From an uncultured Candidatus Poseidoniales archaeon (GTDB lineage Archaea; Thermoplasmatota; Poseidoniia; Poseidoniales; Thalassarchaeaceae): 57,226 nucleotides of DNA. The stretch covers positions 1-57,226 of the forward strand of contig CAZXZO010000010.1 in the NCBI GenBank assembly GCA_964645485.1. Reading direction: 5' to 3'. Shown in pieces: positions 5,762 through 17,176 of the stretch. Under the pieces are notes generated by a model, which worked only from the letters and a program-made list of their open reading frames with translations, was not told where the DNA came from and did not search any database. Position 1 is the stretch's first letter. Each line of letters begins with the position of its first letter. The translations under genes were made by a program, and so were the position numbers.

Positions 5762-5910
5762 TTTGAGCCATATTCTCTTCGCTACAACAGTGCCGAAAAG
5801 GCTGATATTTCAACAACCAGTTTTACGCCAAATAGGTGGGGAAATGCCACATCTGTCCTAGACAGATGCCAATCAACCTTTTTATCTCGATTCGGTTGGG
5901 ACCACTGTTG

Positions 5911-8900
5911 ATGCGAATGAGCCGGCTGAAATCCGTTACCCTTACTCTGTTGTTAGTTGCTACATTAATCGCGCCGATTTCAGCAAATGTAGGCGCCTCA
6001 GGCCCAAAATCAATGGTTGATTTTACAATTGAAGATATTTCCATAGGGAATACTTCGGTAGTCGCGTTTCAATGGGAGCAACCAGACGGCACTCAGATGG
6101 ATTATTTCTTGAAAGAATCTGTTTTACCTATCCAAGTGACCTTCAAACAGGCTGGTTCTTCACTACAGACAACATCAGCAACAGGTTACATCGAAGTTTG
6201 GCACCCTGTTGGTGTTAAAGTCGCAGAATGGAATTATTCTCTATCTCTTTCTGGTGGACAATCAGTTATTCACGAAGTTGTTTGGACTGCCGAAGCGGCT
6301 CACAGTCAACTCGATGATAATGGAACTTTGAGTGGTGGATACATAATCAAAGGTGTAGTTGATGCTGGAATAGCAGAAGGTGATACCTCAAACGATGTTA
6401 CAGAAGAACATGTCCCAATCGCTATTTTCTTTGATGATATGGATAGAGGCATGTGCGGAGATAATGATGGTGATAGTTCAATGGACTGTCCCGGTGCAAC
6501 TTACAATTCACCTACATTTGCGTCAGTAGGTCTTGACACTAATGGCCAAACAGATGGGCATGGTCCATGGCAGATGGACAATTCTTCGGGTTTTGTTGGC
6601 ACAAAACACTGGCGACATTCGGTTCCCGGTCAAGACTATGTCAGTAATGGTAATGACCACATTATTTGGGGTTGGTTCATTCCCGGAGGGGCGACTTGTG
6701 AGGACCCTGGTCATGGACTAGGTTGGGGTGTAACCGCAAACGAACTAAATGGGTTGTACGCTGCTCCATTCTGCAAAGTTTCACTTACAGGTGGCAATTA
6801 CATTTCAATGCAACTGGCCACTCAAGCATGGGGAAGTTTAGGCCTCGGCAATGACGAAGTTTCCATAGAAGCAACTTCTGCAGGTGCAGTCATTGCCACC
6901 AAGAATTTGTCAGAGTCTGGAATTAGTGGTGCTACAGATGATTGGACCCCTGTAATTTGGGATGTGGGTGCGAACACAAGCACTCAGGTTTTCAGTTTGA
7001 GTTACCATTTCCAGAGTGATAATTCAGGTGCTTCGCCAGGTTTCCATATTGATCAATTTGCATTATTTGGAATTGAGAAAGTTCAAGAATACACAATAAC
7101 AGTAGAATGTGATAATCCAGAAACTGGATATCTTGTAATTCCTGCAGACCCAATGCCGCCTTCTCTTTACTGTACTTTGACTAACAACGGCTACCGAGAA
7201 AAGGCATTGCAAATCCTTTCTTTAATAGATAATGAAACATGGATGAATCAGTATTCACCAATTCGAATTGACTCAAACAATATCAATGACCATGATTACA
7301 GTGTACCATTAAATCCAATAGGATTCAATGAAACTACCGAGTTCTGGGTGAATCTAACAATCCCGCCAGGGTCAAATGTAGAACAACTTGAGTGGAATGT
7401 TTCACTGTTAGATTACTATACAGGTGAAGCAAAAGAGATTATTTCCATACCTCTTTCAGTAGACGCGTCGTATTCTGTTGATGTTACACATTATAGCCCA
7501 AGTGAAGTGCCAAACATTGCCCCTGATGAGTCAGGACTTGTCAAATTTAGACTTTCTAACACTGGGAATCAAATGGCGTATTGGAATCTAAATGCTTTCT
7601 TCAATCGTAGCGAGTGGGGTAGTTCACATTACAGATTCTTAGATGCAGATGTAAATGGAACCGAAATCACCTTCATGCAGTTGGCGAAGGGTGAAGACCG
7701 AGATTTCTGGGCAGAATTCACAACTCCTTCAATGCTTTCACCAGGCCTTACAGAAGTGACAATTCTAGCCGCAGGACAATCTCCTGCAACTGCTCAACAG
7801 ACAAAGAAAATTAGCATTAACACTCCTCAAATCAACGATTTAACCATGGTTGCCTCTGAATTACAGATTACAGCGGAAGCAGATGGAAGAACAAGGATTG
7901 TTGAGATTGAATTGACAAATAATGGTAACGCGCCAGAACGATTTGACTTGACATTAACTGCCGATTGGCGACTTGATGCCACACTAAGCCAACCAATAAC
8001 TGAAGAAATTGGAGCCAATGGAGACAGTTCAACAATCCTCCTTGTCATGCCCATGCCCTACGGAATTAGGCCAGATACATATTTCCTAACTGCTCGGGCT
8101 TCATCTCAGGATAATCCACAATTCTTCAAATTAGTACAGGTTGAATTAACCGTTGAGCCAACATATCTTATCGATGTCGAAGATGTTGATATGAGTGGGC
8201 AGACATTCCAAGGCGGTGCTGATGTAAAGACGATTTCATTTGAAGTCACAAATAACGGTAATGATTATGATGAATTTACAATTGATATTGATGCTCCTGC
8301 TGGAATGAACGCAGAAGTAATTCAGAGTGACCAATATAATCCCGATAATCCACCTTCTGTGGCCCAAGGTGCATCGGTGAATATTACCGTTGAATATTCA
8401 TTTGACATTGGAACAAATGGCCTTCTCGAGATGGTTGTTACAGCCCATTCAATTCAATCAGGAGGGTCTGCTGGTGGGGCAGGTTCTGCAACTTTCCAAG
8501 TTGGTAGCCAAGGGTGGATTGATTTAACTGCTGGTTCGATAGTTTCCCTTGATTCTGAGGGCTGGGTACTAGCCAACTTGACGATTCACAACCGGCATCC
8601 AACAAACTCACAATTCATTCGCCTTGATGTAGACCCAGGCAATGCCAGACAATTCTCTTCAGTGCGTGTACAAAGCGAAGATTCATCTTTCGTTCTTGAC
8701 CCTGATGCGAAGAGATCTGCGGCAATCAAATTTTCACTAACAGAAACTCAATTCTTGAACTTACCAGAGGATGAAATATTGTTTAATATCACAGTCATTG
8801 CAACTGGTGACGATGATGTTTCTGAAACCATCGTCCAAGTCAGGGTGATTAGAGAATCTTCAACCGGGGTGAATGCAGAAGCAGAAGGCGGAATTGGGAT

Positions 8901-9348
8901 TGTTAATATCATTGCATTTATTCTTGGAGGAATTGTAGTAATTGCTTTGATTGTAGTTCTGATTAAGGTCGTATTATCAACAAACCGTGAAGAAGATGAG
9001 ATTCTTTCTCTAGAGGGATATCAACGCCAATTAGAGGAAACATACGGCAGCATGCCTGCTGCTCCTGACGTCCCCGTTGGTGGAGGCGGAGCGCCATCAC
9101 TACCAGTTACCGACGAAGTCGCAAATTCTGCCTATGGAGGCGCAGCCGATATCTTTGAGCAACAAATGACAGTTACTCCCGCTGGTAGTCCACCTGCCGG
9201 CAGCCCACCTGCACCAGCGCCTGCAAGCGTCGAATCGGTACCCGCAGGTGCACCTCCTTTACCACCGGGTGGATTACCTGATGGTTGGGACATGACTCAA
9301 TGGGCACATTATGGTGAACAGTACCTAGAACAGAAAGGGCTCAAGTGA
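5911..9348 (+). CDS. Large secreted, C-terminally membrane-anchored protein with tandem Ig/CARDB-like repeats
   Basis: About 1145 aa. Signal peptide; repeated (L/F)xxxNxGN motifs (LTNNG, LSNTGN, LTNNGN, VTNNGN); TM IVNIIAFILGGIVVIALIVVLIKVVL; Pro-rich tail ending GGLPDGWDMTQWAHYGEQYL. Start chosen ahead of the signal peptide (the ORF track gives 5836). Confidence 0.8.
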   Translation: MRMSRLKSVTLTLLLVATLIAPISANVGASGPKSMVDFTIEDISIGNTSVVAFQWEQPDGTQMDYFLKESVLPIQVTFKQAGSSLQTTSATGYIEVWHPVGVKVAEWNYSLSLSGGQSVIHEVVWTAEAAHSQLDDNGTLSGGYIIKGVVDAGIAEGDTSNDVTEEHVPIAIFFDDMDRGMCGDNDGDSSMDCPGATYNSPTFASVGLDTNGQTDGHGPWQMDNSSGFVGTKHWRHSVPGQDYVSNGNDHIIWGWFIPGGATCEDPGHGLGWGVTANELNGLYAAPFCKVSLTGGNYISMQLATQAWGSLGLGNDEVSIEATSAGAVIATKNLSESGISGATDDWTPVIWDVGANTSTQVFSLSYHFQSDNSGASPGFHIDQFALFGIEKVQEYTITVECDNPETGYLVIPADPMPPSLYCTLTNNGYREKALQILSLIDNETWMNQYSPIRIDSNNINDHDYSVPLNPIGFNETTEFWVNLTIPPGSNVEQLEWNVSLLDYYTGEAKEIISIPLSVDASYSVDVTHYSPSEVPNIAPDESGLVKFRLSNTGNQMAYWNLNAFFNRSEWGSSHYRFLDADVNGTEITFMQLAKGEDRDFWAEFTTPSMLSPGLTEVTILAAGQSPATAQQTKKISINTPQINDLTMVASELQITAEADGRTRIVEIELTNNGNAPERFDLTLTADWRLDATLSQPITEEIGANGDSSTILLVMPMPYGIRPDTYFLTARASSQDNPQFFKLVQVELTVEPTYLIDVEDVDMSGQTFQGGADVKTISFEVTNNGNDYDEFTIDIDAPAGMNAEVIQSDQYNPDNPPSVAQGASVNITVEYSFDIGTNGLLEMVVTAHSIQSGGSAGGAGSATFQVGSQGWIDLTAGSIVSLDSEGWVLANLTIHNRHPTNSQFIRLDVDPGNARQFSSVRVQSEDSSFVLDPDAKRSAAIKFSLTETQFLNLPEDEILFNITVIATGDDDVSETIVQVRVIRESSTGVNAEAEGGIGIVNIIAFILGGIVVIALIVVLIKVVLSTNREEDEILSLEGYQRQLEETYGSMPAAPDVPVGGGGAPSLPVTDEVANSAYGGAADIFEQQMTVTPAGSPPAGSPPAPAPASVESVPAGAPPLPPGGLPDGWDMTQWAHYGEQYLEQKGLK

Positions 9349-9514
9349 ATTCCCGGTTCAAATTGAAACGCCAATAGAAGTGAAATTGACGATTTTGGCC
9401 GTAATGGCTGATTCCACTAGGTTTCGTTAACCATCAAGTGAGCGGTTGCCCTTAAGAGGGAGGCGCGGGTCGCAAGCCCGCCCCATAGGGGCGAATATAC
9501 CGGAAGTGGTTGAA

Positions 9515-11125
9515 GTGTACAATGGACAAGCACCAATTTTCATTCTCAAAGACGGAACTGACAGAGTTAGAGGCAAAAGCGCTCAAAGCAACAATATCGC
9601 TGCTGCAAAGGCGGTTGCGGATGCAGTTCGTTCTACTCTTGGACCAAAAGGTATGGATAAGATGTTAGTCGATAGTATGGGGGATGTTGTAATCACCAAT
9701 GATGGTGCTACAATTCTAAAGGAGATGGATATAGAACATCCGGCAGCTAAGATGATTATTGAAGTTGCAAAAACTCAGGAGCAACATTGCTACGATGGTA
9801 CAACTAGTGCGGTAGTAATCGCAGGTGAGTTACTCAAACGAAGTGAGGACCTAATTGACCAGAATGTTCACCCTACGGTGATATGCCACGGTTTTAGATT
9901 GGCGGCAGAACGAGCAGTTGAACTTCTTGAGAGTCACTCTATTTCCGTTGAGGAAGAAGACACTCTAGCAGAGGTTGCGAAGACTGCTCTTACCGGGAAG
10001 AGTGCAGAAGCAGTGAAGTCATTCTTGGCTGATATTTGTGTAAAAGCCGTGAAATCTGTTGGTAGAGAAGATGATGGAGAGAGAGCGGTATCATTAGACG
10101 ATATCAAAGTAGAAAAGCGCCAAGGCGGTTCAATCAAAGCGAGCACCTTAGTTGATGGAATTATCTTGGACAAAGAGCGAGTTCACCCTGGAATGCCAAG
10201 AGCGGTATCCGATGCAAAAATTGCTTTAGTGAACAGCGCAATTGAAGTGAAGAAAACCGAAGTTGATGCAAAAATTCAGATTACAGACCCTAGTATGTTA
10301 GCAAAATTCTTGGAAGAGGAAGAGAACTATCTGAAAGGATTGGTCGAAAAGTTGCAAAACTCTGGAGCAAATGTGCTAGTTTGCCAAAAGGGAATTGATG
10401 ACATCGCACAACACTATCTCGCTAAGGCTGGGTTGTTTGCTGTCCGCAGAGCCAAAAAGAGTGACATGGAAGCACTATCAAAGGCAACTGGCGGACGTAT
10501 TGTTACCAATATTGATGACCTTGCTGAAGGAGATCTTGGAAGTTCAGCCAAAGTAGAGGAGCGCAAAATTGGCGACTCAGATATGGTATTCATCACAGGC
10601 TGCCCAGAAGCAAAGAGTGTGTCTGTTTTACTCCGAGGTGGAACAGAGCATGTTGTTGACGAAGTACGTCGAGCATTTGACGATGCAATCGGTGTAATTA
10701 GTGTGGCTTGGGAAGATGGTTCCGTGCTCACTGGCGGTGGCAGTGTTCTTGCAGCATTGAGTCGTGATTTGCGGATATATGCCGAAGGAATTGGCGGTCG
10801 CGAACAGATGGCAATTGAGGCATTTGCTGGTGCTCTTGAGGTAATTCCTCGTACACTTGCAGAAAACGCTGGTCTTGACCCGGTAAACACAATCATCGAG
10901 TTACGCAAGGCCCACGCTGAAGGAAAATCAACATTCGGCGTTAATGTATTCGAAGGGGGAGTCATGGATATGCAAGTTGCCCAAGTTGTTGAACCAACAA
11001 GGGTTGTTGAGCAAGCAATTCAAAGTGCTACAGAAACTGCAGTAATGATTCTAAGAATTGATGATGTCATATCATCCAAAGCCGTCTCAGGTGGCGGAAT
11101 GGATGGCATGGATTTTGACATGTGA
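9515..11125 (+). CDS. thsA: Thermosome subunit (group II chaperonin)
   Basis: [28 protein letters not shown] and a GGM-type tail. Probable GTG start at 9515 ([12 protein letters not shown]). Confidence 0.98.
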
Positions 11126-11272
11126 AGCAGGTACAATCCGCCATCACAGATTGATTGCCGCTTACTCATTTGAGTAGAATTAGGCAGAATGTCAGATGCA
11201 GTCTGCGCGGTATATTCAATAATCGACCTACGGTCGAGCAAATCACACAGCCTAGGCTGTGAAGGTGTCAAC

Positions 11273-13219
11273 ATGTCTGAAGTCGTAGTTTGGATTGCTG
11301 ATGGCTGCATCACCTGTGATGCTTGTGAGGAAGAGTATCCAGAAGTTTTCAAGGTAACAGATGATACTTGTTACATCACAGCAGATTCTAGAACTGATGG
11401 TGGATTTGACACCAATGAAGGAACTAAATCTTCACTGAAATCTGGTTTGGATTTAGAGGCAATCCAGGATGCTGCAAGCGGATGCCCGGTTGACGTAATC
11501 ATGGTTGAAGTGGGCAGCAGTGGAGATTCCGCCTCCGAAGCCACAGCAGAGGAACCAACAGCGGAGGCGGCAGAACCAGTCGAAGCAGCCCCGGCTGCAG
11601 TTGAAGCATCAATGGATGGCGACCGGTCTTTACTCGTATTATCTGGTTCACAATCAGGTAACTCAGAAGCAATAGCAGCGAAGGCTGGCAAATTAGCCGA
11701 TATTTATTCATTAGAAGCAACTGTCAAAGGAATGGATGAAGTCCAAATCGGTGATTTAGCAGCATATCAGCGAATACTCGTCATTTGCAGTACTTGGGGT
11801 GAAGGCGAAATGCCAGATAATGCCGAAGATCTGTGGAATGCGGCGAATGCAGATGGTGCACCGTCACTCTCTGGAAGCCACTTTTCTGTCTGCTCTTTAG
11901 GTGATACATCGTACGAATTCTTCTGTCAATCAGGAATTGATTGGGATGGATGGTTCGAAAAGGTAGGTTCCAACAGAATCACTCCGAGAGTTGATTGTGA
12001 TGTTGATTATGATGCGATGGCAGATGCTTGGTTATCAGATGCATTGGCACACATGGGTGCAGTTGATGGGGAAGGCAACTTCAACGAAGAGATGGTAGCA
12101 TCTCTCAAAGAAAAGGCAGCAGGCGGTTCTAAGAAAGCAGCAGCCGGCTCAGCATTTGACATTCCTGATTTGGTAGGACAAGAAATCCAAGTTAACGCTA
12201 GAGTCTACAGGTACGACCCAGAATCCGGCCAATCTGGCCATGATGTTTGGCGCTGCGCAGTACCAGGAAGCGTTAGCGTACTGGAGTTACTCCGTTTGCT
12301 CAAAGCGACTGAAGATGGTAGTCTAACTTTCCGTGATGGCAATGCAGATGACCCAACTACTGCAATTTCAGCAAATGGCAGGAATATTTTGCCAGGTAGA
12401 GTAGCAATCTCAGAAATTGTCAGAGATAAAGATGGCGAATCGTCACTTCGAATCGACCCGCTCTCTGGATTTGATGTAATACGTGACTTAGCCGTTGACC
12501 ACTCGGATTATCATATTCATCTAGCTAATGCAAAGCCTTGGATGCACGCGTCCACCCGTGAGGGAACCAAGGTTTCTCAAGGGATAATTGGCACAATGGA
12601 TGCTTTTGCGGCAGAAACAATTCATCATGCATCAGATTTCCCAAGTTGCCAGTTACTTCACGCTTCAAGTGACACAGTTCCTCACAACCGTTCATACGTT
12701 GGGCCAGCAGTTATCGCTCGTCTTTGGGCTCGCTTCAATGACCCACGAACATCACAAAAAGGAAAAGATGGGTATTTAGCAACAATTCAATCTGAAAATG
12801 GAATCAAGGCTGAGGCTGATTTGAGTTCAGTCTACAAATCAGGAAGGGCTTGGAATGGGGCTGGGGCAAGTTTGTTAGAAGCAAAAAGGAAAACCCTGCA
12901 AGATGATGGTTTTACAGGCCGACATGGCAAGCACGTTTGGTGGTTCTCTGAAACAGTGAAACTCTCGGGTAGACTTAACGAGACCGTTTTGGCAGGTGCT
13001 ACACTCGGTCCATTTGGTATGGCGAAAAACGCTATCTCCGGTGTGCTCCCTAGGATGTTGTTAGGATTCACTAGAACAGGTGGTCCTATGATTAGAGATT
13101 TACAGGCCTTGGCTGCTCCACCCGCTAGCGTTGGAAAGATGCCTAAAATGATTAATTCTTCAGTAGATGACCATCATGAGGTGGTTGCTATCTTCAATAA
13201 ATTCGACAGGAGGTTCTGA
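11273..13219 (+). CDS. Fusion protein: monocluster ferredoxin + flavodoxin + Cys-depleted SdhB/FrdB-like domain
   Basis: CITCDAC...CP ferredoxin. Flavodoxin loops SGSQSGNSE, STWGEGEMPDNA and SLGDTSYEFFC. SdhB scaffold motifs RVYRYDP, SVLELLRLLK, LTFR, IRDLAVD, KPW, YVGPA and DPR. ATG 11273 follows the SD gaaggtg. Confidence 0.85.
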   Translation: MSEVVVWIADGCITCDACEEEYPEVFKVTDDTCYITADSRTDGGFDTNEGTKSSLKSGLDLEAIQDAASGCPVDVIMVEVGSSGDSASEATAEEPTAEAAEPVEAAPAAVEASMDGDRSLLVLSGSQSGNSEAIAAKAGKLADIYSLEATVKGMDEVQIGDLAAYQRILVICSTWGEGEMPDNAEDLWNAANADGAPSLSGSHFSVCSLGDTSYEFFCQSGIDWDGWFEKVGSNRITPRVDCDVDYDAMADAWLSDALAHMGAVDGEGNFNEEMVASLKEKAAGGSKKAAAGSAFDIPDLVGQEIQVNARVYRYDPESGQSGHDVWRCAVPGSVSVLELLRLLKATEDGSLTFRDGNADDPTTAISANGRNILPGRVAISEIVRDKDGESSLRIDPLSGFDVIRDLAVDHSDYHIHLANAKPWMHASTREGTKVSQGIIGTMDAFAAETIHHASDFPSCQLLHASSDTVPHNRSYVGPAVIARLWARFNDPRTSQKGKDGYLATIQSENGIKAEADLSSVYKSGRAWNGAGASLLEAKRKTLQDDGFTGRHGKHVWWFSETVKLSGRLNETVLAGATLGPFGMAKNAISGVLPRMLLGFTRTGGPMIRDLQALAAPPASVGKMPKMINSSVDDHHEVVAIFNKFDRRF

Positions 13220-13220
13220 A

Positions 13221-14084
13221 ATGGCAAAAAATAGATATGCATATTTCCCCGGATGTGTGACTCTTAATTCTGCTAGAGAAGTACAAGATGCAATGCTTGC
13301 ATTGGCGCGTGCTTTAGATATTGAGTTAGTTCCTTTGAATGGTGCTTCATGCTGTGGTGCGGGAGTTATCAAGCAAGCAAATTGGGAACTACAAATTGCC
13401 CTAAATGCAAGAACATTTGCACAGGCTGAATCCCAAGGTTTGGATGTACTTACTCCTTGTGCTAGTTGCCAAGGCAACATGTCTGAGGATTTCACCAAGT
13501 TGTCCACAGATGCGGATTTGCGCGAGCGTGTGAATGAACAATTGGAATCAATTTGTGGGCTTCGCTTTGAGGGCACAATGAAGATGCGCCACCTGCTTCA
13601 TGTGCTGGTTGAAGATATTGGCTTAGATGTTGTTTCAGCTGCGGTGAAAAACCCGATTGATTTCCCAGTGGCAGGTTACTATGGGTCAGTAATGCAACAA
13701 GATGGTGCTTGTGGGGATGACGATATTTATGACCCACATTATTTCGAAGATTTGATTGAAGCCTTGGGCGGCCAAGCAGTAAATTATGATAGTAAAGCAA
13801 AAAGTGTGGGATTCCCATCTTTATTGTCTGAGGAATCTAGTGCAATGAAAATGACTGCATCAGTACTTTCGGATGCAAAAAGTGAGGGTGCTCGAATAAT
13901 GGCATCCGCTTGCCCACTTTCTCACATTAATCTTGATTCCTACCAAGTAAAGGCTGGACGAGTGTCTGGTAGTGATGTTGACATGCCAGCAATTCATTTG
14001 CCTGAGTTAATTGCCTTTGCTCTTGGAGCATACAACGACCGGTATGCTCAGTTGCGAACAAGAGTTCTCGTTATGGGTAATTGA
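13221..14084 (+). CDS. CCG-domain protein (HdrB / SdhE family)
   Basis: YFPGC...CCGAG...TPCASC in the first CCG domain; second domain YYGS...SVG...ACPLS. Starts 1 bp after the fusion gene's stop codon. Confidence 0.9.
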   Translation: MAKNRYAYFPGCVTLNSAREVQDAMLALARALDIELVPLNGASCCGAGVIKQANWELQIALNARTFAQAESQGLDVLTPCASCQGNMSEDFTKLSTDADLRERVNEQLESICGLRFEGTMKMRHLLHVLVEDIGLDVVSAAVKNPIDFPVAGYYGSVMQQDGACGDDDIYDPHYFEDLIEALGGQAVNYDSKAKSVGFPSLLSEESSAMKMTASVLSDAKSEGARIMASACPLSHINLDSYQVKAGRVSGSDVDMPAIHLPELIAFALGAYNDRYAQLRTRVLVMGN

Positions 14085-14099
14085 GAGAAGTTGATTTCT

Positions 14100-16877
14100 C
14101 TAATCTCGCAACACTTCTAGGATTGATTTAGCACTTGCTGGCCCAATTCCAGAGACTTGACAAAGTTCTGCTTCATCTGCTTTAGTCAGAGCCTCTATAG
14201 ATTTGAAATGGTCTAAAAGGCGTTTTGCAGTTGTTGGCCCAATATTTGGCAGAGATTCGAGAAGGTGAAGTTTATTCGTCTGTTTTTGTTGTTCATCACG
14301 AGTGTCTAATGCACCCACTTTTGAAGCATCTAAAATGACTCTTTGTTCGGTTTGAAGGCCTGTATCAATCACAATTTCTGCTGCATCAATTGATGTTTTT
14401 TCATCCAATCTAGACCCACCAGGGCCTTGATTTTCAAACCAAAGATTTGTCGTGTTTTCTTCATCACCAATTTTCATTCTCTCTCTTGCTTCTTTCGTCA
14501 AGGCGCCTAACAATGCTTGTTCACGGCGTGCGGCTATGATTAGAAATCGCGCAGTTTCTTCACCATCTTGAGTTGTTACAACTGGTAGGCCGAGGTCAAT
14601 CGTCAAGGTTGCTAAGGCACCCATCAATGCATTATTGTGAACTGCTCTCTGTGTGAAGAGTCCTCCACCTTCAATCAATAATAATGGCCGAGGGGCTGCT
14701 CCAATCAATCGGTGTGCTTGTTCAAGCAACCTGCCATCCAAGAGGGAATCAACAAAATCTCTCACACGCTTTCTCTCAACAAGTACTCTGTCTCCTATTT
14801 GGAAATCACCAATGGCTAATGTTTTGACATCAACATCAACTCCTTGTAGTCTCAGAGTTGCAGCAATTGTGGTGTTCAGTTCACGGTGGTCGACTACAAT
14901 CCGACAGGGGATATCAAATTCGTGGGCTAAGGGGTCAACAGCTTCTGTGGTTAATGCTTGAACTATATCTTCTGCTGCTCTCACTGCTAGTTTAGCAATA
15001 TTTTCGTCAATATCCAATTCTCGCTCATCAAGATCAGACTCGCCTTGGTCATTTTTCATGGCATTTGTCGGAGCAGATGATGGAAATGAGTCAAGTCCGG
15101 TTTGCCCCCTTGGGCGTAGCCTTGAAGGCTCATTTTTGTATTTATTATCTTTATTTTGTTGTATTTTATCATCATCTGTTTCTGGAATTTCACCTTCTAC
15201 GGTTGTACTAACACGGGATGTCTTCTCACCTAATGTAGGTGCTAAGCGCTGCATTTCTGAGACCATAAATGCATGGGCGGAGCCAATTATCTCGTTTTGT
15301 CTGACTTTGAATGACCTCAATAATTCAACTGGATTGTCATCAACTGGGCGCCCCATATTTCTTCGAACCCTATCAATTGCGTGTTTCATCTTTTTTTCAC
15401 GAAAAAGGGCAGAGGCCCTGGCGCCTTCATCTCTAGTGTTCCTTGCGATTAAGACGTGAACAGTGCCTGAACGATGCCTTCCTGTTCTTCCGCGCCTCTG
15501 GATTGTACGGATTTCACTCCCAACTGGTTCATAAAAAACCACAAGATCTGCTCTTGGCACATCCAATCCCTCTTCTCCTACTGATGTCGCAACTAGAACG
15601 TTACATTCCCCTTCTCTGAATCTTTGTAAGCCCTCAAGTTGGGCTTTTTGTGTCATTCCAGCACTCCCATCTCGGCTTGCCTGTCCAACAAATCGTTCTG
15701 GTATCGCCAGTCTAGATTCATCTAACCGTTTCACGATTTCATTGACAGTGTCACGGAAGTGAGCAAAGACGATGACGCGGCTTTCAGGGTGAGCGTTTAA
15801 CTGGTCTAATACCAAATTTACAGTTGTTCCAACCTTTTCATGTAACTCGGGACTTACCTTCAGATTTTCAAACAATTCTGTTATTCGGCCGTCATTGAAG
15901 AATGCAGCCGCGCCCTTATCACCACCTTCACCCGAATTTTTTACTCGGCTTAGATATTCTCTTGATGCGGCAACGCCTTGGCTGAGAAGATAACCGATTA
16001 GATTCAGAAGTCTTTGCCCCTGAGCACATTGCCTCGCGGCATTGTATGCCAACCCCTCTCCTCTGACAATTGCTCCTTGAATTCGGCCACGTGTTTCATT
16101 CAATTGGCTGCTTGTTGGTCTTCCAGAGTGTACATGGTATCCCAATCTTCTAAGTTGGTCAACAAGATGGTCTAGCCACATTTGCAGTGGTGCTGCCATC
16201 AATTTCAACCCATCATCAACATCAACAAATACCTCCTTTACTTGTAATCCTGCAGCATATGGTGCTAACAGTGCGTTTTCAGCAGAGCGAGAGTGAATGC
16301 GGGTCAAGCCTAGTCGGGTACAAACTTCCTCAACTTGTTCACGAGTCGAGCCAGGACTAGCAGTTGCACCTAGAATTAACGGCTTTTCAGCAAATTGTAG
16401 ATACAAATCCCCTACTTCTGCAGATGAGTGTTTCCCAGTTGAATGATGCGCTTCATCCGCTACTAAGATGGTTACATCTGCAAGGTCAATTGAACCTCGG
16501 TTTACATCATTTCGAATGACGTGAGGAGTTGCGACAATAATTTCCGCGGCTGCCCAACGTTTCTGGCGTTTACGCCAATCTATAGAGCCAGTCATAGAGG
16601 TTATGGAATCATCTGTTTCCTGATTTGTTATTACTCTTTTTAAATCTCCCAAATGCTGATTTACCAAGGCATTTGTTGGAGCGATAATCAATGCTCTTCC
16701 TCCTTCTGTATGGAGTCTTTCAGCAATTACCATCCATTCAATTGGAGTTTTCCCAAGAGCCGTAGGTAATACCAACAATGTCGGTGCACCTAAACAATCT
16801 GCTACCGCTTCAATTTGATATCCCCTCGCTTCTACTGACTCTGCAGTCAGGCGAGGATGCTCAATAAAAGCGGCCAT
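14100..16877 (-). CDS. hef: Hef (FANCM-like) SF2 helicase-ERCC4/XPF nuclease
   Basis: LPTALGKT (motif I), DEAHH, GATASP, QRRGRTGR, nuclease GDF...ERKRVRDF and a C-terminal HhH pair (IGPTTA, IGPASA). Confidence 0.95.
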   Translation of the reverse strand: MAAFIEHPRLTAESVEARGYQIEAVADCLGAPTLLVLPTALGKTPIEWMVIAERLHTEGGRALIIAPTNALVNQHLGDLKRVITNQETDDSITSMTGSIDWRKRQKRWAAAEIIVATPHVIRNDVNRGSIDLADVTILVADEAHHSTGKHSSAEVGDLYLQFAEKPLILGATASPGSTREQVEEVCTRLGLTRIHSRSAENALLAPYAAGLQVKEVFVDVDDGLKLMAAPLQMWLDHLVDQLRRLGYHVHSGRPTSSQLNETRGRIQGAIVRGEGLAYNAARQCAQGQRLLNLIGYLLSQGVAASREYLSRVKNSGEGGDKGAAAFFNDGRITELFENLKVSPELHEKVGTTVNLVLDQLNAHPESRVIVFAHFRDTVNEIVKRLDESRLAIPERFVGQASRDGSAGMTQKAQLEGLQRFREGECNVLVATSVGEEGLDVPRADLVVFYEPVGSEIRTIQRRGRTGRHRSGTVHVLIARNTRDEGARASALFREKKMKHAIDRVRRNMGRPVDDNPVELLRSFKVRQNEIIGSAHAFMVSEMQRLAPTLGEKTSRVSTTVEGEIPETDDDKIQQNKDNKYKNEPSRLRPRGQTGLDSFPSSAPTNAMKNDQGESDLDERELDIDENIAKLAVRAAEDIVQALTTEAVDPLAHEFDIPCRIVVDHRELNTTIAATLRLQGVDVDVKTLAIGDFQIGDRVLVERKRVRDFVDSLLDGRLLEQAHRLIGAAPRPLLLIEGGGLFTQRAVHNNALMGALATLTIDLGLPVVTTQDGEETARFLIIAARREQALLGALTKEARERMKIGDEENTTNLWFENQGPGGSRLDEKTSIDAAEIVIDTGLQTEQRVILDASKVGALDTRDEQQKQTNKLHLLESLPNIGPTTAKRLLDHFKSIEALTKADEAELCQVSGIGPASAKSILEVLRD

Positions 16878-17176
16878 GAACATCAATCCCACAGGTCACG
16901 GTTCTAAATGATTCTCACGTTTTATAAGAATTGAGTCTATGAAATCATATGAAAAATGGTGTCTAATTCATTCACAAATTTGATATCATTAATGGATGAC
17001 CAAATAGCACTAAAACCATTGCATGAGGTCTTATTCTCCTCATTCCCCGATAGGTGGGGTTCATATATGGTAGGTCGGTCGGCGAGACGCTCACATAGTG
17101 AGGTACCAGACACAGAGGGCTATGCAACAAGCAACCCACAACTCGGAAAATCAGTTCAGAAATCCGAATCGTGTCA

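What the first reader, a model, noticed from the sequence alone, without database searches (positions are those of the whole stretch)
11273..14084. Candidate new electron-transfer module: ferredoxin-flavodoxin fused to an Fe-S-less SdhB scaffold, paired with a CCG protein
Seen: one polypeptide carries (1) a CxxCxxC...CP ferredoxin, (2) a CysJ/diflavin-reductase-type flavodoxin with intact FMN loops and (3) a full SdhB/FrdB-like body in which the cluster ligands are gone. The [2Fe-2S] motif FRxSCRxxxCGSC...LAC reads FRDGNADDPTT...ILPG. The first CxxCxxCxxxCP reads FPSCQLLHASSD (one Cys left). The second reads AEADLSSVYKSG (no Cys). Flanking structural motifs (YRYDP, IRDLAVD, KPW, GPA, DPR, GRH..., GRLNE, GKMP) are retained, the frame is intact, and the HdrB/SdhE gene starts 1 bp downstream. 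No SdhA flavoprotein is nearby. Established: type-E succinate dehydrogenases use an SdhB + CCG-protein pair, and flavodoxin replaces Fe-S ferredoxin under iron limitation in marine microbes. Inference: a repurposed SdhB/SdhE paralogue in which SdhB is only a docking scaffold, and tethered ferredoxin/FMN domains deliver electrons to the CCG site. It may be an iron-sparing or disulfide/quinone-reducing system. I do not recognise this architecture from characterised enzymes.
Basis: partly seen in the sequence, partly recalled or inferred. Interest (0 to 1): 0.85.

Follow-up and report, generated by a model that had tools for sequence, protein, structure and literature searches.

The report
Iron-sulfur-stripped succinate dehydrogenase remnant with tethered carriers
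All sampled Marine Group II ocean archaea keep a strongly conserved, uncharacterised gene pair that descends from succinate dehydrogenase, has lost its iron-sulfur wiring and carries fused ferredoxin and flavodoxin domains instead; two unlinked genes may be missing partners.

Summary
Window 11273-13219 encodes a [4Fe-4S]-type ferredoxin, a CysJ-type FMN flavodoxin and a full SdhB-fold domain with none of its cluster cysteines. The next gene (13221-14084) is translationally coupled and encodes an HdrB/SdhE-like protein. Its N-terminal CCG site is intact (5 of 5 Cys); its C-terminal site is eroded (1 of 5).

This is not decay. The Cys loss is fixed across the family, dN/dS is about 0.05, and strong matches occur in 154 of 155 sampled Poseidoniales genomes.

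The closest Fe-S-bearing relatives are long SdhB proteins in sdhA-sdhB-CCG (type-E-like) operons. A complete canonical sdhCAB lies elsewhere in this genome.

- The CCG site it treats as the electron target is gone in 30 of 44 orthologous loci.
- The carriers are swapped freely: Fd, Fd-Fd, Fd-Fld, Fld, Fld-Fld.

Two unlinked candidate partners emerged:
- A degenerate orphan SdhA-like flavoprotein, predicted to dock on the cluster-less SdhB.
- An FMN-less CysJ-type FAD/NADPH reductase, which in some genomes is fused to the same kind of flavodoxin.

The function is untested. This scan had already found the gene pair in at least 10 other genomes. I did not find it in the papers searched.

The parts
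11273..13219 (+). Fusion gene: ferredoxin, flavodoxin and cluster-less SdhB (648 aa from ATG 11273; stop TGA 13217-13219)
   Evidence: The start is inferred from orthologue N-termini and an AGGTG 6 nt upstream.
11300..11503 (+). Single-cluster ferredoxin domain (Fer4_13) with CxxCxxC...CP, four Cys
   Evidence: Pfam 30.8 bits, cut-off 24.5. Genome scan places it at 11300-11503. The Cys are conserved in all Fd-bearing orthologues. dN/dS is 0.014.
11504..11635 (+). Acidic Ala/Pro/Glu-rich flexible linker between ferredoxin and flavodoxin
   Evidence: Variable in length and sequence in alignment A1. dN/dS is 0.25, against about 0.05 for the domains. pLDDT is below 50.
11636..12061 (+). CysJ/diflavin-reductase-type FMN flavodoxin domain
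   Evidence: Flavodoxin_1 E 2.6e-25; TIGR01931 cysJ E 2e-38. The loops GSQSGN, CSTWGEG and LGD..YE are invariant. It is the only confident part of the full-length model. It is the only Flavodoxin_1 match in this genome.
12161..13216 (+). Cluster-less SdhB-fold domain (long, type-E-like form with C-terminal extension)
   Evidence: End-to-end alignment with 314-323 aa SdhB proteins; all cluster Cys replaced. AF2 pLDDT 84, pTM 0.76. Foldseek: 32 SdhB/FrdB chains, target TM 0.82-0.86 for the best. dN/dS is 0.049.
13208..13223 (+). Translational coupling signal: AGGAGG inside the end of the first gene, TGA, one base, then the ATG of the second gene
   Evidence: Read directly from the sequence. Orthologues have overlapping or abutting stop and start.
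13221..14084 (+). HdrB/SdhE-like CCG protein (287 aa)
   Evidence: TIGR03288 HdrB E 7e-45 and NF042965 MFR SdhE E 6e-44, both below cut-off. PDB HdrB chains E 1e-33 to 1e-36. It is 39% identical to the CCG protein of sdhA-sdhB-CCG operons. dN/dS is 0.023.
13236..13481 (+). N-terminal CCG domain with all five Cys (FPGC, SCCG, PCASC): a candidate site for one non-cubane [4Fe-4S] cluster
   Evidence: Pfam CCG 58.4 bits. Aligned to HdrB cluster ligands. The five Cys are kept in genera g1, g2, g3, g8, g18 and g19 only.
13674..13931 (+). Degenerate C-terminal CCG domain (YYGS, SVGF, ACPLS: 1 of 5 Cys left)
   Evidence: Alignment to HdrB. The same state is seen in every orthologue examined.

Best explanation
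This is a working, strongly conserved redox module that Poseidoniales (Marine Group II) derived from a type-E-like succinate dehydrogenase (sdhA-sdhB-sdhE).

**Anatomy.**
- The SdhB descendant has lost all three Fe-S clusters and now serves as a scaffold.
- On a flexible acidic linker it carries interchangeable low-potential carriers. In this genome they are one four-Cys ferredoxin and one FMN flavodoxin.
- It is co-translated with an SdhE/HdrB descendant. In this genus that protein still has one complete CCG cluster site.

**Proposed extra subunits.**
- An unlinked, degenerate SdhA descendant (G000 contig C8:56070-57569, minus strand) docks on the scaffold where SdhA docks on SdhB.
- An FMN-less CysJ-type FAD/NADPH protein (contig C3:90653-91984, minus strand) exchanges electrons with the tethered flavodoxin.

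**Proposed path in this genome.** NADPH <-> FAD (CysJ-like) <-> FMN (flavodoxin) <-> [4Fe-4S] (ferredoxin) <-> a terminal site. That site would be the CCG cluster of the partner and/or the flavin of the SdhA descendant. The acceptor would be a quinone or a disulfide.

**Shown:** domain anatomy, Cys loss, fold, descent, purifying selection, universality and carrier swapping.

**Inferred:** cofactor occupancy, the two extra subunits, the direction of electron flow and the terminal acceptor.
For: **Anatomy and fold:**

**Descent.** The nearest Fe-S-bearing relatives (P0149, P0172) sit in sdhA-sdhB-CCG operons. All three Poseidoniales proteins score best against those operons' products. SdhA' gives 150/143 bits there, against 111 to the genome's own SdhA and 90 to NadB. 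The cluster-less SdhB hits only the long SdhB proteins. The CCG protein is 39% identical.

**Selection and spread.** dN/dS is 0.014-0.049 in the domains and 0.25 in the linker. Strong matches occur in 65/66 and 89/89 genomes of the two Poseidoniales families, and in 0/43 of the sister family. Synteny and coupling are conserved.

**Carriers are interchangeable.** Fd-Fld, Fld-Fld, Fld, Fd and Fd-Fd all sit on the same scaffold at the same locus.

**SdhA'.**
- Orthologues occur in nearly all genomes of the same two families; only weak paralogue hits occur in the sister family.
- It lacks the covalent-FAD His and the residues equivalent to R286, H354 and R399.
- Predicted complex with the cluster-less SdhB plus FAD: score 0.91, best of 3 controls 0.00. 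That mark was reached by 58 of 80 solved complexes and 2 of 110 mismatched pairs. The runs agree in at least 88% of contacts, and the partner's pLDDT is at least 90.
- The tightest contacts join the invariant KPW of the scaffold to the SdhA'-specific invariant EEQC.K motif.

**CysJ-like module.**
- It has FAD_binding_1 and NAD_binding_1 domains and no FMN domain.
- The fusion protein holds the only Flavodoxin_1 domain found in this genome.
- In G133, G178, G123, G155 and G058 the same reductase carries an N-terminal flavodoxin of the same type.
- No CysI or P450 was found in this 82%-complete genome.
Against: - No experiment exists, and cofactor binding is inferred from motifs only.
- SdhA-SdhB complexes are solved many times over. 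The pass may therefore reflect likeness to known structures rather than binding of this copy. No paralogue control (canonical SdhA) could be run.
- Predicted interface residues are not more conserved than the rest of either protein (p 0.56 and 0.26).
- Distance-matrix covariation did not discriminate partners from non-partners.
- The shared distribution of SdhA' and the scaffold amounts to one evolutionary contrast.
- With no [2Fe-2S] cluster, the flavin of a docked SdhA' has no obvious wire to the carriers.
- The CysJ-like module also occurs in the sister family, which lacks the scaffold (38/43), so it is not dedicated to this module.
- Fd-only and Fd-Fd variants have no flavodoxin at all.
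- The CCG cluster site is lost in most lineages, so the terminal site cannot be the same everywhere.
Confidence: 0.45

Rival explanations
1. This is a two-protein system in which the cluster-less SdhB only docks the CCG protein. The tethered ferredoxin and FMN feed electrons to the single CCG [4Fe-4S] site, which reduces a disulfide or a quinone. No SdhA-like subunit is involved.
For: - In this genus the N-terminal CCG site has 5 of 5 Cys in register with HdrB ligands.
- The two genes are translationally coupled.
- The CCG protein evolves markedly more slowly in genomes that keep the five Cys, even across families (Kimura distance 0.37-0.47 against 0.64-0.87). This suggests the site is functional where it is kept.
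- SdhE of Sulfolobus binds a [4Fe-4S] cluster through its CCG domains (PMC2754724).
Against: - Thirty of 44 orthologous loci have only 1-2 of those 5 Cys, yet keep both proteins conserved. Seventy-five of 121 database relatives show the same state.
- HdrB chemistry uses two CCG clusters, and the second site is eroded in all members.
- This model leaves the conserved orphan SdhA' and the FMN-less CysJ module without a role.
Confidence: 0.25
2. The SDH-derived parts (SdhA', cluster-less SdhB, CCG protein) are a non-catalytic platform. It merely holds or localises a ferredoxin/flavodoxin hub, for example at the membrane. That hub links the ferredoxin pool reduced by 2-oxoacid:ferredoxin oxidoreductases with NADP(H) through the CysJ-like module. 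In effect it would be a scaffolded ferredoxin:NADP+ oxidoreductase.
For: - All catalytic or cofactor residues of SDH are gone from the three descendants.
- Carrier motifs stay invariant.
- The genome encodes two OFOR alpha subunits and several small ferredoxin-like frames.
- The CysJ-like FAD/NADPH module is present without the usual acceptors.
- Type-E SdhE is regarded as a monotopic membrane anchor (abstract of PMC2754724).
Against: - dN/dS of 0.02-0.05 across about 640 scaffold residues, with many invariant polar residues, is more constraint than a passive platform usually needs.
- The five-Cys CCG site is retained in several genera of both families.
- No membrane association was tested.
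Confidence: 0.2
3. The pair is a decaying paralogue or an accessory part of the organism's real succinate dehydrogenase.
For: Public annotations call these proteins succinate dehydrogenase subunits, heterodisulfide reductase subunit B, or flavodoxin domain protein.
Against: - Frames are intact in all 41 loci translated.
- dN/dS is about 0.05.
- The pair is present in 154 of 155 Poseidoniales genomes sampled.
- A complete canonical sdhC-sdhA-sdhB, with every Cys in SdhB, lies on contig C3.
Confidence: 0.03

Closest known systems
Type-E (non-classical) succinate:quinone oxidoreductase SdhABE(F) of Sulfolobus/Acidianus, and the sdhABE methylmenaquinol:fumarate reductase of Campylobacter/Wolinella
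   Same: - Long-form SdhB with a C-terminal extension, immediately followed by a CCG-domain SdhE gene.
- The SdhB-like domain aligns with these SdhB proteins end to end.
- The CCG protein is 39% identical to the CCG protein of sdhA-sdhB-CCG operons.
- SdhA' is closer to their SdhA than to the genome's own SdhA.
   Different: - No cluster-ligand Cys remains in the SdhB-like domain (type-E SdhB has 12).
- The second CCG site is eroded.
- The SdhA descendant is unlinked and lacks the dicarboxylate and covalent-FAD residues.
- Ferredoxin and flavodoxin are fused at the N-terminus.
HdrB of heterodisulfide reductase (PDB 5odc, 8rvv), with HdrC as its ferredoxin-like partner
   Same: Full-length homology (E 1e-33 to 1e-36). 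The first CCG motif is in register with the five ligands of a non-cubane [4Fe-4S] cluster.
   Different: HdrB needs two such clusters to cleave the heterodisulfide. Here the second site keeps 1 of 5 Cys. In most orthologues the first is gone as well.
Diflavin reductases (CysJ, cytochrome P450 reductase)
   Same: The flavodoxin domain is of the CysJ FMN type (TIGR01931 E 2e-38). A CysJ-type FAD/NADPH module with RLYSIASS and a terminal ...RYLRDVY is encoded in the genome.
   Different: - The two halves lie on different polypeptides and contigs in this genome. They are fused in some relatives.
- No CysI or P450 acceptor was found.
- The FMN domain is fused to an SDH remnant instead.
Thiol:fumarate reductase TfrAB of methanogens (SdhA-like TfrA; TfrB = SdhB-like plus CCG domains)
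   Same: It combines an SdhA-like flavoprotein, an SdhB-like module and CCG domains without a membrane cytochrome. There are weak NCBIfam matches to TfrA and TfrB.
   Different: TfrB keeps its Fe-S and CCG cysteines, and TfrA keeps its fumarate site. Here both are lost.

Membership tests
SdhB/FrdB iron-sulfur subunit (PF13085 + dicluster domain; TIGR00384) | Two-domain SdhB fold (2Fe-2S ferredoxin-like N-domain plus helical C-domain) | tested here: met
   AF2 pLDDT 84. Foldseek finds 32 SdhB/FrdB chains at E<=1e-7, with target TM 0.82-0.86 for the best. Caveat: 20 of the 73 alignment rows were true SdhB proteins.
SdhB/FrdB iron-sulfur subunit (PF13085 + dicluster domain; TIGR00384) | Four Cys ligating [2Fe-2S] | tested here: not met
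   The motif reads FRDGNADDPTT...ILPG. No Cys occurs at any ligand column in any family member.
SdhB/FrdB iron-sulfur subunit (PF13085 + dicluster domain; TIGR00384) | CxxCxxCxxxCP and a second Cys motif ligating [4Fe-4S] and [3Fe-4S]/[4Fe-4S] | tested here: not met
   One non-conserved Cys remains in the first motif and none in the second. No Fer4 dicluster Pfam hit.
SdhB/FrdB iron-sulfur subunit (PF13085 + dicluster domain; TIGR00384) | Score above the curated family cut-off | tested here: inconclusive
   Pfam Fer2_3: 33.1 bits against cut-off 27 (met). TIGR00384: 54.9 against 88. PRK05950: 60.2 against 228 (not met).
Type-E SQR / MFR module (long SdhB + SdhE) | Long SdhB with a C-terminal extension, followed directly by a CCG-protein gene | tested here: met
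   Alignment through GR.NE and GK.P to the C-terminus. The gene order is the same as in L079 and L080.
Type-E SQR / MFR module (long SdhB + SdhE) | Catalytic SdhA with dicarboxylate-binding His/Arg residues, encoded in the operon | tested here: not met
   No SdhA is in the operon. The unlinked SdhA' lacks the equivalents of R286, H354, R399 and the flavinylation His.
HdrB/SdhE CCG-domain proteins (PF02754 x2) | Two CXnCCGXmCXXC motifs | tested here: not met
   The first motif is complete. The second keeps 1 of 5 Cys. Only one Pfam CCG hit.
Flavodoxin_1 / CysJ FMN domain | FMN phosphate loop and the two isoalloxazine-flanking loops | tested here: met
   GSQSGN, CSTWGEG..PDNA and LGD.SYE.FC are invariant or nearly so in 21 sequences. 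Pfam 89.7 bits. FMN occupancy itself is not testable here.
Diflavin reductase (CysJ/CPR) | FMN, FAD and NADPH domains in one polypeptide | tested here: not met
   The fusion protein has no FAD_binding_1 or NAD_binding_1 domain. Those domains are on a separate 444-aa protein on contig C3.
Single-cluster ferredoxin (Fer4_13) | CxxCxxC...CP with four Cys | tested here: met
   CITCDAC ... GCP is conserved in all Fd-bearing orthologues.

The most novel reading that the evidence does not exclude
Poseidoniales run a respiratory-type oxidoreductase built on the skeleton of complex II, in which the Fe-S wire has been replaced by tethered, exchangeable carriers. The components would be SdhA' (FAD), a cluster-less SdhB carrying Fd/Fld, an SdhE' anchor or acceptor site, and an in-trans CysJ-type NADPH module. 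Some lineages (Fld or Fld-Fld with a Cys-poor CCG protein) would then have a version with no Fe-S cluster at all: an iron-sparing NAD(P)H- or ferredoxin-to-quinone/disulfide entry point in one of the most abundant archaeal groups of the iron-poor surface ocean.
Probability: 0.22. Interest if true: 0.88.

Novelty: new variant of a known kind. Interest (0 to 1): 0.72.

Why it matters
**Why it would matter.**
- Marine Group II archaea are among the most abundant archaea in the surface ocean and remain uncultured.
- A near-universal, strongly constrained module of unknown function is therefore a real gap in their metabolic maps. Databases label its parts cysJ, sdhB, sdhC or hdrB, so automated reconstructions may misread it.
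- It is also a natural series in which an Fe-S electron-transfer assembly loses its clusters step by step while staying under selection. The series runs from Fd or Fd-Fd with a five-Cys CCG site, through Fd-Fld, to Fld-Fld with no cluster ligands at all.
- That series makes two questions testable. Can flavins on tethers replace an Fe-S wire? Is iron economy the driver?

Two candidate missing subunits (SdhA' and the FMN-less CysJ-type reductase) turn a pair of unknown function into a concrete four-protein reconstitution experiment.

Tried and rejected
- **Full-length structure.** AF2 on the full-length fusion with 21 sequences gave pLDDT 52.6, with only the flavodoxin confident. I did not use that model. 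A deeper domain alignment worked.
- **Interface conservation.** I tested whether the predicted SdhA'-scaffold interface is more conserved than the rest of each protein. It is not (p 0.56 and 0.26).
- **Distance covariation.** I ran partial Mantel tests on distance matrices of the scaffold, CCG protein, SdhA' and CysJ-like protein across 38 genomes. All partial correlations were positive (0.26-0.77), including the would-be control. The test does not discriminate and gives no support either way.
- **RNA runs.** No RNA holder was listed.
- **G048 fused frame.** A 997-aa single frame in G048 joins the fusion and the CCG protein. It comes from a deletion that removes the conserved GKMP...HHEVV tail. 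I treated it as a likely MAG artefact, not as Rosetta-stone evidence.
- **SdhA' neighbourhood.** It is conserved but uninformative: RFC-like AAA, SdhA', FG-GAP protein, HIT, acyltransferase, DUF2299. An unknown 500-aa protein lies upstream of SdhA' in some lineages. It has no Pfam hit and no match in this genome.
- **Strict covariation idea.** I first thought a ferredoxin always goes with an intact CCG site. That was rejected: 19 Fd-Fld loci have a Cys-poor CCG protein. The weaker rule holds: all Fld-only and Fld-Fld loci have Cys-poor partners, and the two Fd-only or Fd-Fd loci examined have five-Cys partners.
- **C34 flavoprotein.** It was considered as a partner and rejected. It is NadB, scoring above the TIGR00551 cut-off.
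- **Literature.** Five full-text searches and one paper check found no description of the architecture.


Full report
**1. What is in the window**

The ORF at 11189-13219 (+) is most likely translated from ATG 11273. All orthologues start MSEVV.VWI, and an AGGTG lies 6 nt upstream.

Pfam finds three domains:
- Fer4_13 at residues 38-105, numbered from 11189.
- Flavodoxin_1 at 150-274 (E 2.6e-25).
- Fer2_3, the SdhB N-domain, at 337-441 (33.1 bits, cut-off 27).

NCBIfam gives the FMN part of CysJ (E 2e-38). It also gives several SdhB/FrdB families over residues 333-540, all far below their curated cut-offs.

The next gene, 13221-14084, encodes an HdrB/SdhE-like CCG protein. It scores E 7e-45 against TIGR03288 and 6e-44 against the MFR SdhE model, both below cut-off.

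The junction reads AGGAGG (13208-13213), TGA (13217-13219), one base, then ATG. That is a Shine-Dalgarno sequence inside the upstream gene, which indicates translational coupling.

The upstream neighbour (9446-11125) is a thermosome subunit, consistent with an archaeon (Cpn60_TCP1 in the syntenic loci).

**2. The cysteine losses are real, in register and fixed**

The closest relatives that keep their cysteines are 314-323 aa SdhB proteins (P0149, P0152, P0162, P0172). The SdhB-like domain aligns with them from its first strand to its C-terminus.
- The [2Fe-2S] ligand positions read FRDG..DDP.T and LPG.
- The first CxxCxxCxxxCP reads S.QLLHASSD. The window's single Cys there has a family conservation of only 0.24.
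- The second motif reads AE.DLSS..K.G.

Across 29 diverse family members, no ligand column holds a conserved Cys. The only nearly invariant Cys lies in a W.C motif outside the cluster sites.

With a 73-row alignment, the domain models at pLDDT 84 and pTM 0.76. Foldseek returns 32 SdhB/FrdB chains at E <= 1e-7. One caveat: 20 of the alignment rows were true SdhB proteins.

A Nei-Gojobori comparison with the closest orthologue (G188, dS about 0.8) gives these dN/dS values:

| Region | dN/dS |
|---|---|
| Ferredoxin | 0.014 |
| Flavodoxin | 0.041 |
| SdhB-like domain | 0.049 |
| CCG protein | 0.023 |
| Acidic linker | 0.25 |

This copy is not decaying.

**3. The CCG protein**

I aligned it to solved HdrB (8rvv, 5odc; E 1e-33 to 1e-36).
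- The first half keeps all five cluster ligands: FPGC, SCCG, PCASC.
- The second half reads YYGS, SVGF, ACPLS, so 1 of 5 remains.

HdrB uses two non-cubane [4Fe-4S] clusters. Sulfolobus SdhE binds a [4Fe-4S] cluster and a zinc site through its two CCG domains (PMC2754724). HdrB-type chemistry is therefore not expected here.

**4. Distribution and descent**

The large protein collection holds more than 1,400 relatives at 90% clustering. The representative library holds about 15 clusters at 50%. The names that sources give are Marine Group II labels (Thalassarchaeaceae, 'Euryarchaeota archaeon').

In a sample of 201 genomes of the class, the SdhB-like domain gives strong matches as follows:
- 65/66 and 89/89 genomes of the two Poseidoniales families.
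- 0/43 genomes of the sister family.
- Only weak matches (E about 1e-15) in a fourth family.

The locus is always the same: a roughly 1,100-aa protein, the thermosome, the fusion, the CCG protein, a Hef-like helicase on the other strand, and the ribosomal protein operon.

The cysteine-complete relatives P0149 and P0172 sit in sdhA-sdhB-CCG operons. That is the type-E / MFR gene order.

This genome also holds a complete canonical sdhC-sdhA-sdhB on contig C3, with every Cys in SdhB. The pair is therefore a paralogue, not the organism's SDH.

**5. The carriers are cassettes, and Fe-S content falls along a series**

The same scaffold, at the same locus, carries five carrier arrangements:
- Fd-Fld, as in this window. 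This is the only arrangement seen in the 17 Poseidoniaceae (f2) loci translated, and it is common among the f1 loci.
- Fld-Fld, in six genera of this genome's family. Both forms occur inside genera g5 and g9.
- Fld alone (P0131).
- Fd alone (P0132).
- Fd-Fd (P0134).

I translated 41 loci from 20 genera and three divergent variants. The first CCG site of the partner reads:

| First CCG site | Where found |
|---|---|
| CCCCC (5 of 5 Cys) | g1 (this genus), g2, g3, g8, g18, g19; also the Fd-only and Fd-Fd variants |
| NSCCT (2 of 5) | g4-g7, g9-g13 |
| NSDCS or similar (1 of 5) | g14-g17, g20; the Fld-only variant also keeps 1 of 5 |

- Every Fld-only or Fld-Fld locus goes with a Cys-poor partner.
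- Fd-Fld loci go with either state: 12 with five Cys, 19 Cys-poor.
- In all, 30 of the 44 loci have a Cys-poor first site.

The family therefore spans versions with an inferred 2-3 clusters down to versions with no cluster ligands. The window belongs to a cluster-retaining branch: one ferredoxin cluster plus one CCG site.

The CCG protein is much less diverged among five-Cys genomes, even across families. Its Kimura distance to the window's protein is 0.37-0.47 there, against 0.64-0.87 elsewhere outside the window's genus. This suggests the site is functional where it is kept.

**6.

The repurposed-paralogue and scaffold ideas stand. Delivery of electrons to the CCG site is plausible in this genus. 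It cannot be the conserved core of the system, because most orthologues have lost that site and remain constrained.

**7. A candidate third subunit**

Contig C8:56070-57569 (minus strand) encodes a 499-aa SdhA/FrdA/NadB-fold protein far below every NCBIfam cut-off.

Compared with the genome's own SdhA:
- The flavinylation His is absent.
- RGEGG reads LDDGA.
- HY.MGG reads ST.IGG.
- HGANRLG reads HGADMAV.
- The capping domain is shortened.

It is therefore not a succinate/fumarate enzyme.

It scores higher against the SdhA of the sdhA-sdhB-CCG operons (150 and 143 bits) than against its own SdhA (111) or NadB (90).

Strong orthologues occur in nearly all genomes of the same two families. The sister family gives only paralogue-level hits of about 1e-22.

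I ran a complex prediction of the SdhB-like domain plus FAD plus this protein:
- Score 0.91, with the best of 3 controls at 0.00.
- That mark was reached by 58 of 80 solved complexes and 2 of 110 mismatched pairs.
- The runs agree in at least 88% of contacts, and the partner's pLDDT is at least 90.

The tightest contacts join the invariant P126/W127 of the scaffold to the SdhA'-specific invariant EEQC.K motif and to W96/G97. The former [2Fe-2S] loop (residues 56-66) touches the loop that would carry the flavinylation His.

Caveats:
- SdhA-SdhB complexes are solved many times, so the pass may reflect likeness to known structures.
- No paralogue control could be run.
- Interface residues are not more conserved than average.
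- A covariation test was uninformative.

I put this link at about 55%.

**8. A candidate electron donor or acceptor for the flavodoxin**

Contig C3:90653-91984 (minus strand) encodes a 444-aa CysJ-type FAD/NADPH module. It has FAD_binding_1, NAD_binding_1, RLYSIASS and a terminal RYLRDVY, and it has no FMN domain.

- The fusion protein holds the only Flavodoxin_1 domain found in this 82%-complete genome.
- No CysI or P450 was found.
- In five other Poseidoniales genomes, the same reductase carries an N-terminal flavodoxin closely resembling those of the fusions. This is a fused/split pattern linking the two.
- Against exclusivity: the module also occurs in the sister family, which lacks the scaffold (38/43). 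In addition, Fd-only variants have no flavodoxin.

I put this link at about 50%.

**9. Most likely mechanism**

Shown: the anatomy, descent, constraint and carrier exchange.

Inferred: NADPH <-> FAD (CysJ-like) <-> FMN <-> [4Fe-4S] of the tethered ferredoxin <-> a terminal site on the SDH-derived body. In this genus that site would be the CCG cluster, and possibly the flavin of SdhA'. The acceptor would be a quinone or a disulfide.

The direction is open. The genome has two OFOR alpha subunits, so ferredoxin-to-NADP+ flow is equally conceivable.

**10. Novelty**

- Five full-text searches and one paper check found no description.
- Earlier reports of this scan had already found and confirmed the gene pair in at least 10 other Marine Group II genomes.
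- First readers had separately noted the orphan SdhA-like and the FMN-less CysJ-like genes.

It is a new, uncharacterised variant derived from known families, and its function is untested.

Noticed in passing
G000 contig C8:56070-57569 (minus strand; locus L006:1075-2574), outside the window: An orphan 499-aa SdhA-fold flavoprotein without the flavinylation His or the dicarboxylate-binding Arg/His residues. It is conserved across Poseidoniales and predicted to dock on the cluster-less SdhB.
   Followed up: partly
G000 contig C3:90653-91984 (minus strand; L065:961-2295), outside the window: A stand-alone CysJ-type FAD/NADPH module with no FMN domain, lying beside a biotin carboxylase and an MBL-fold hydrolase. 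In some relatives (L074-L078) the same protein has an N-terminal flavodoxin.
   Followed up: partly
L035 (G048:C27:8492-12069): A single 997-aa frame joins Fld-Fld-SdhB-like to the CCG protein. It arises from a deletion that removes the conserved GKMP...HHEVV tail. This may be a MAG or assembly artefact, or a real fused variant.
   Followed up: partly
window 5836-9348 (+): A 1,170-aa ORF upstream of the thermosome. Its counterparts (1,071-1,162 aa) occupy the same place in every syntenic Marine Group II locus and carry no recorded Pfam family.
   Followed up: no
L061:3386-4939 and L062:3415-4920: A 500-aa protein with no Pfam hit lies directly upstream of the SdhA-like gene in some Poseidoniales. 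It was not found in this genome.
   Followed up: partly
G000 contigs C4:8185-9707 and C9:8775-9629, outside the window: Two further large proteins (968-aa and 685-aa frames) combine Fer4 dicluster and double CCG domains. They look like GlcF/GlpC/LutA-type Fe-S subunits. This genome therefore still makes cysteine-complete CCG proteins.
   Followed up: no
window 14100-16892 (-): A 930-aa ORF convergent on the CCG gene. Its syntenic counterparts have DEAD/ResIII, Helicase_C, ERCC4 and HhH domains (Hef-like helicase-nuclease).
   Followed up: no
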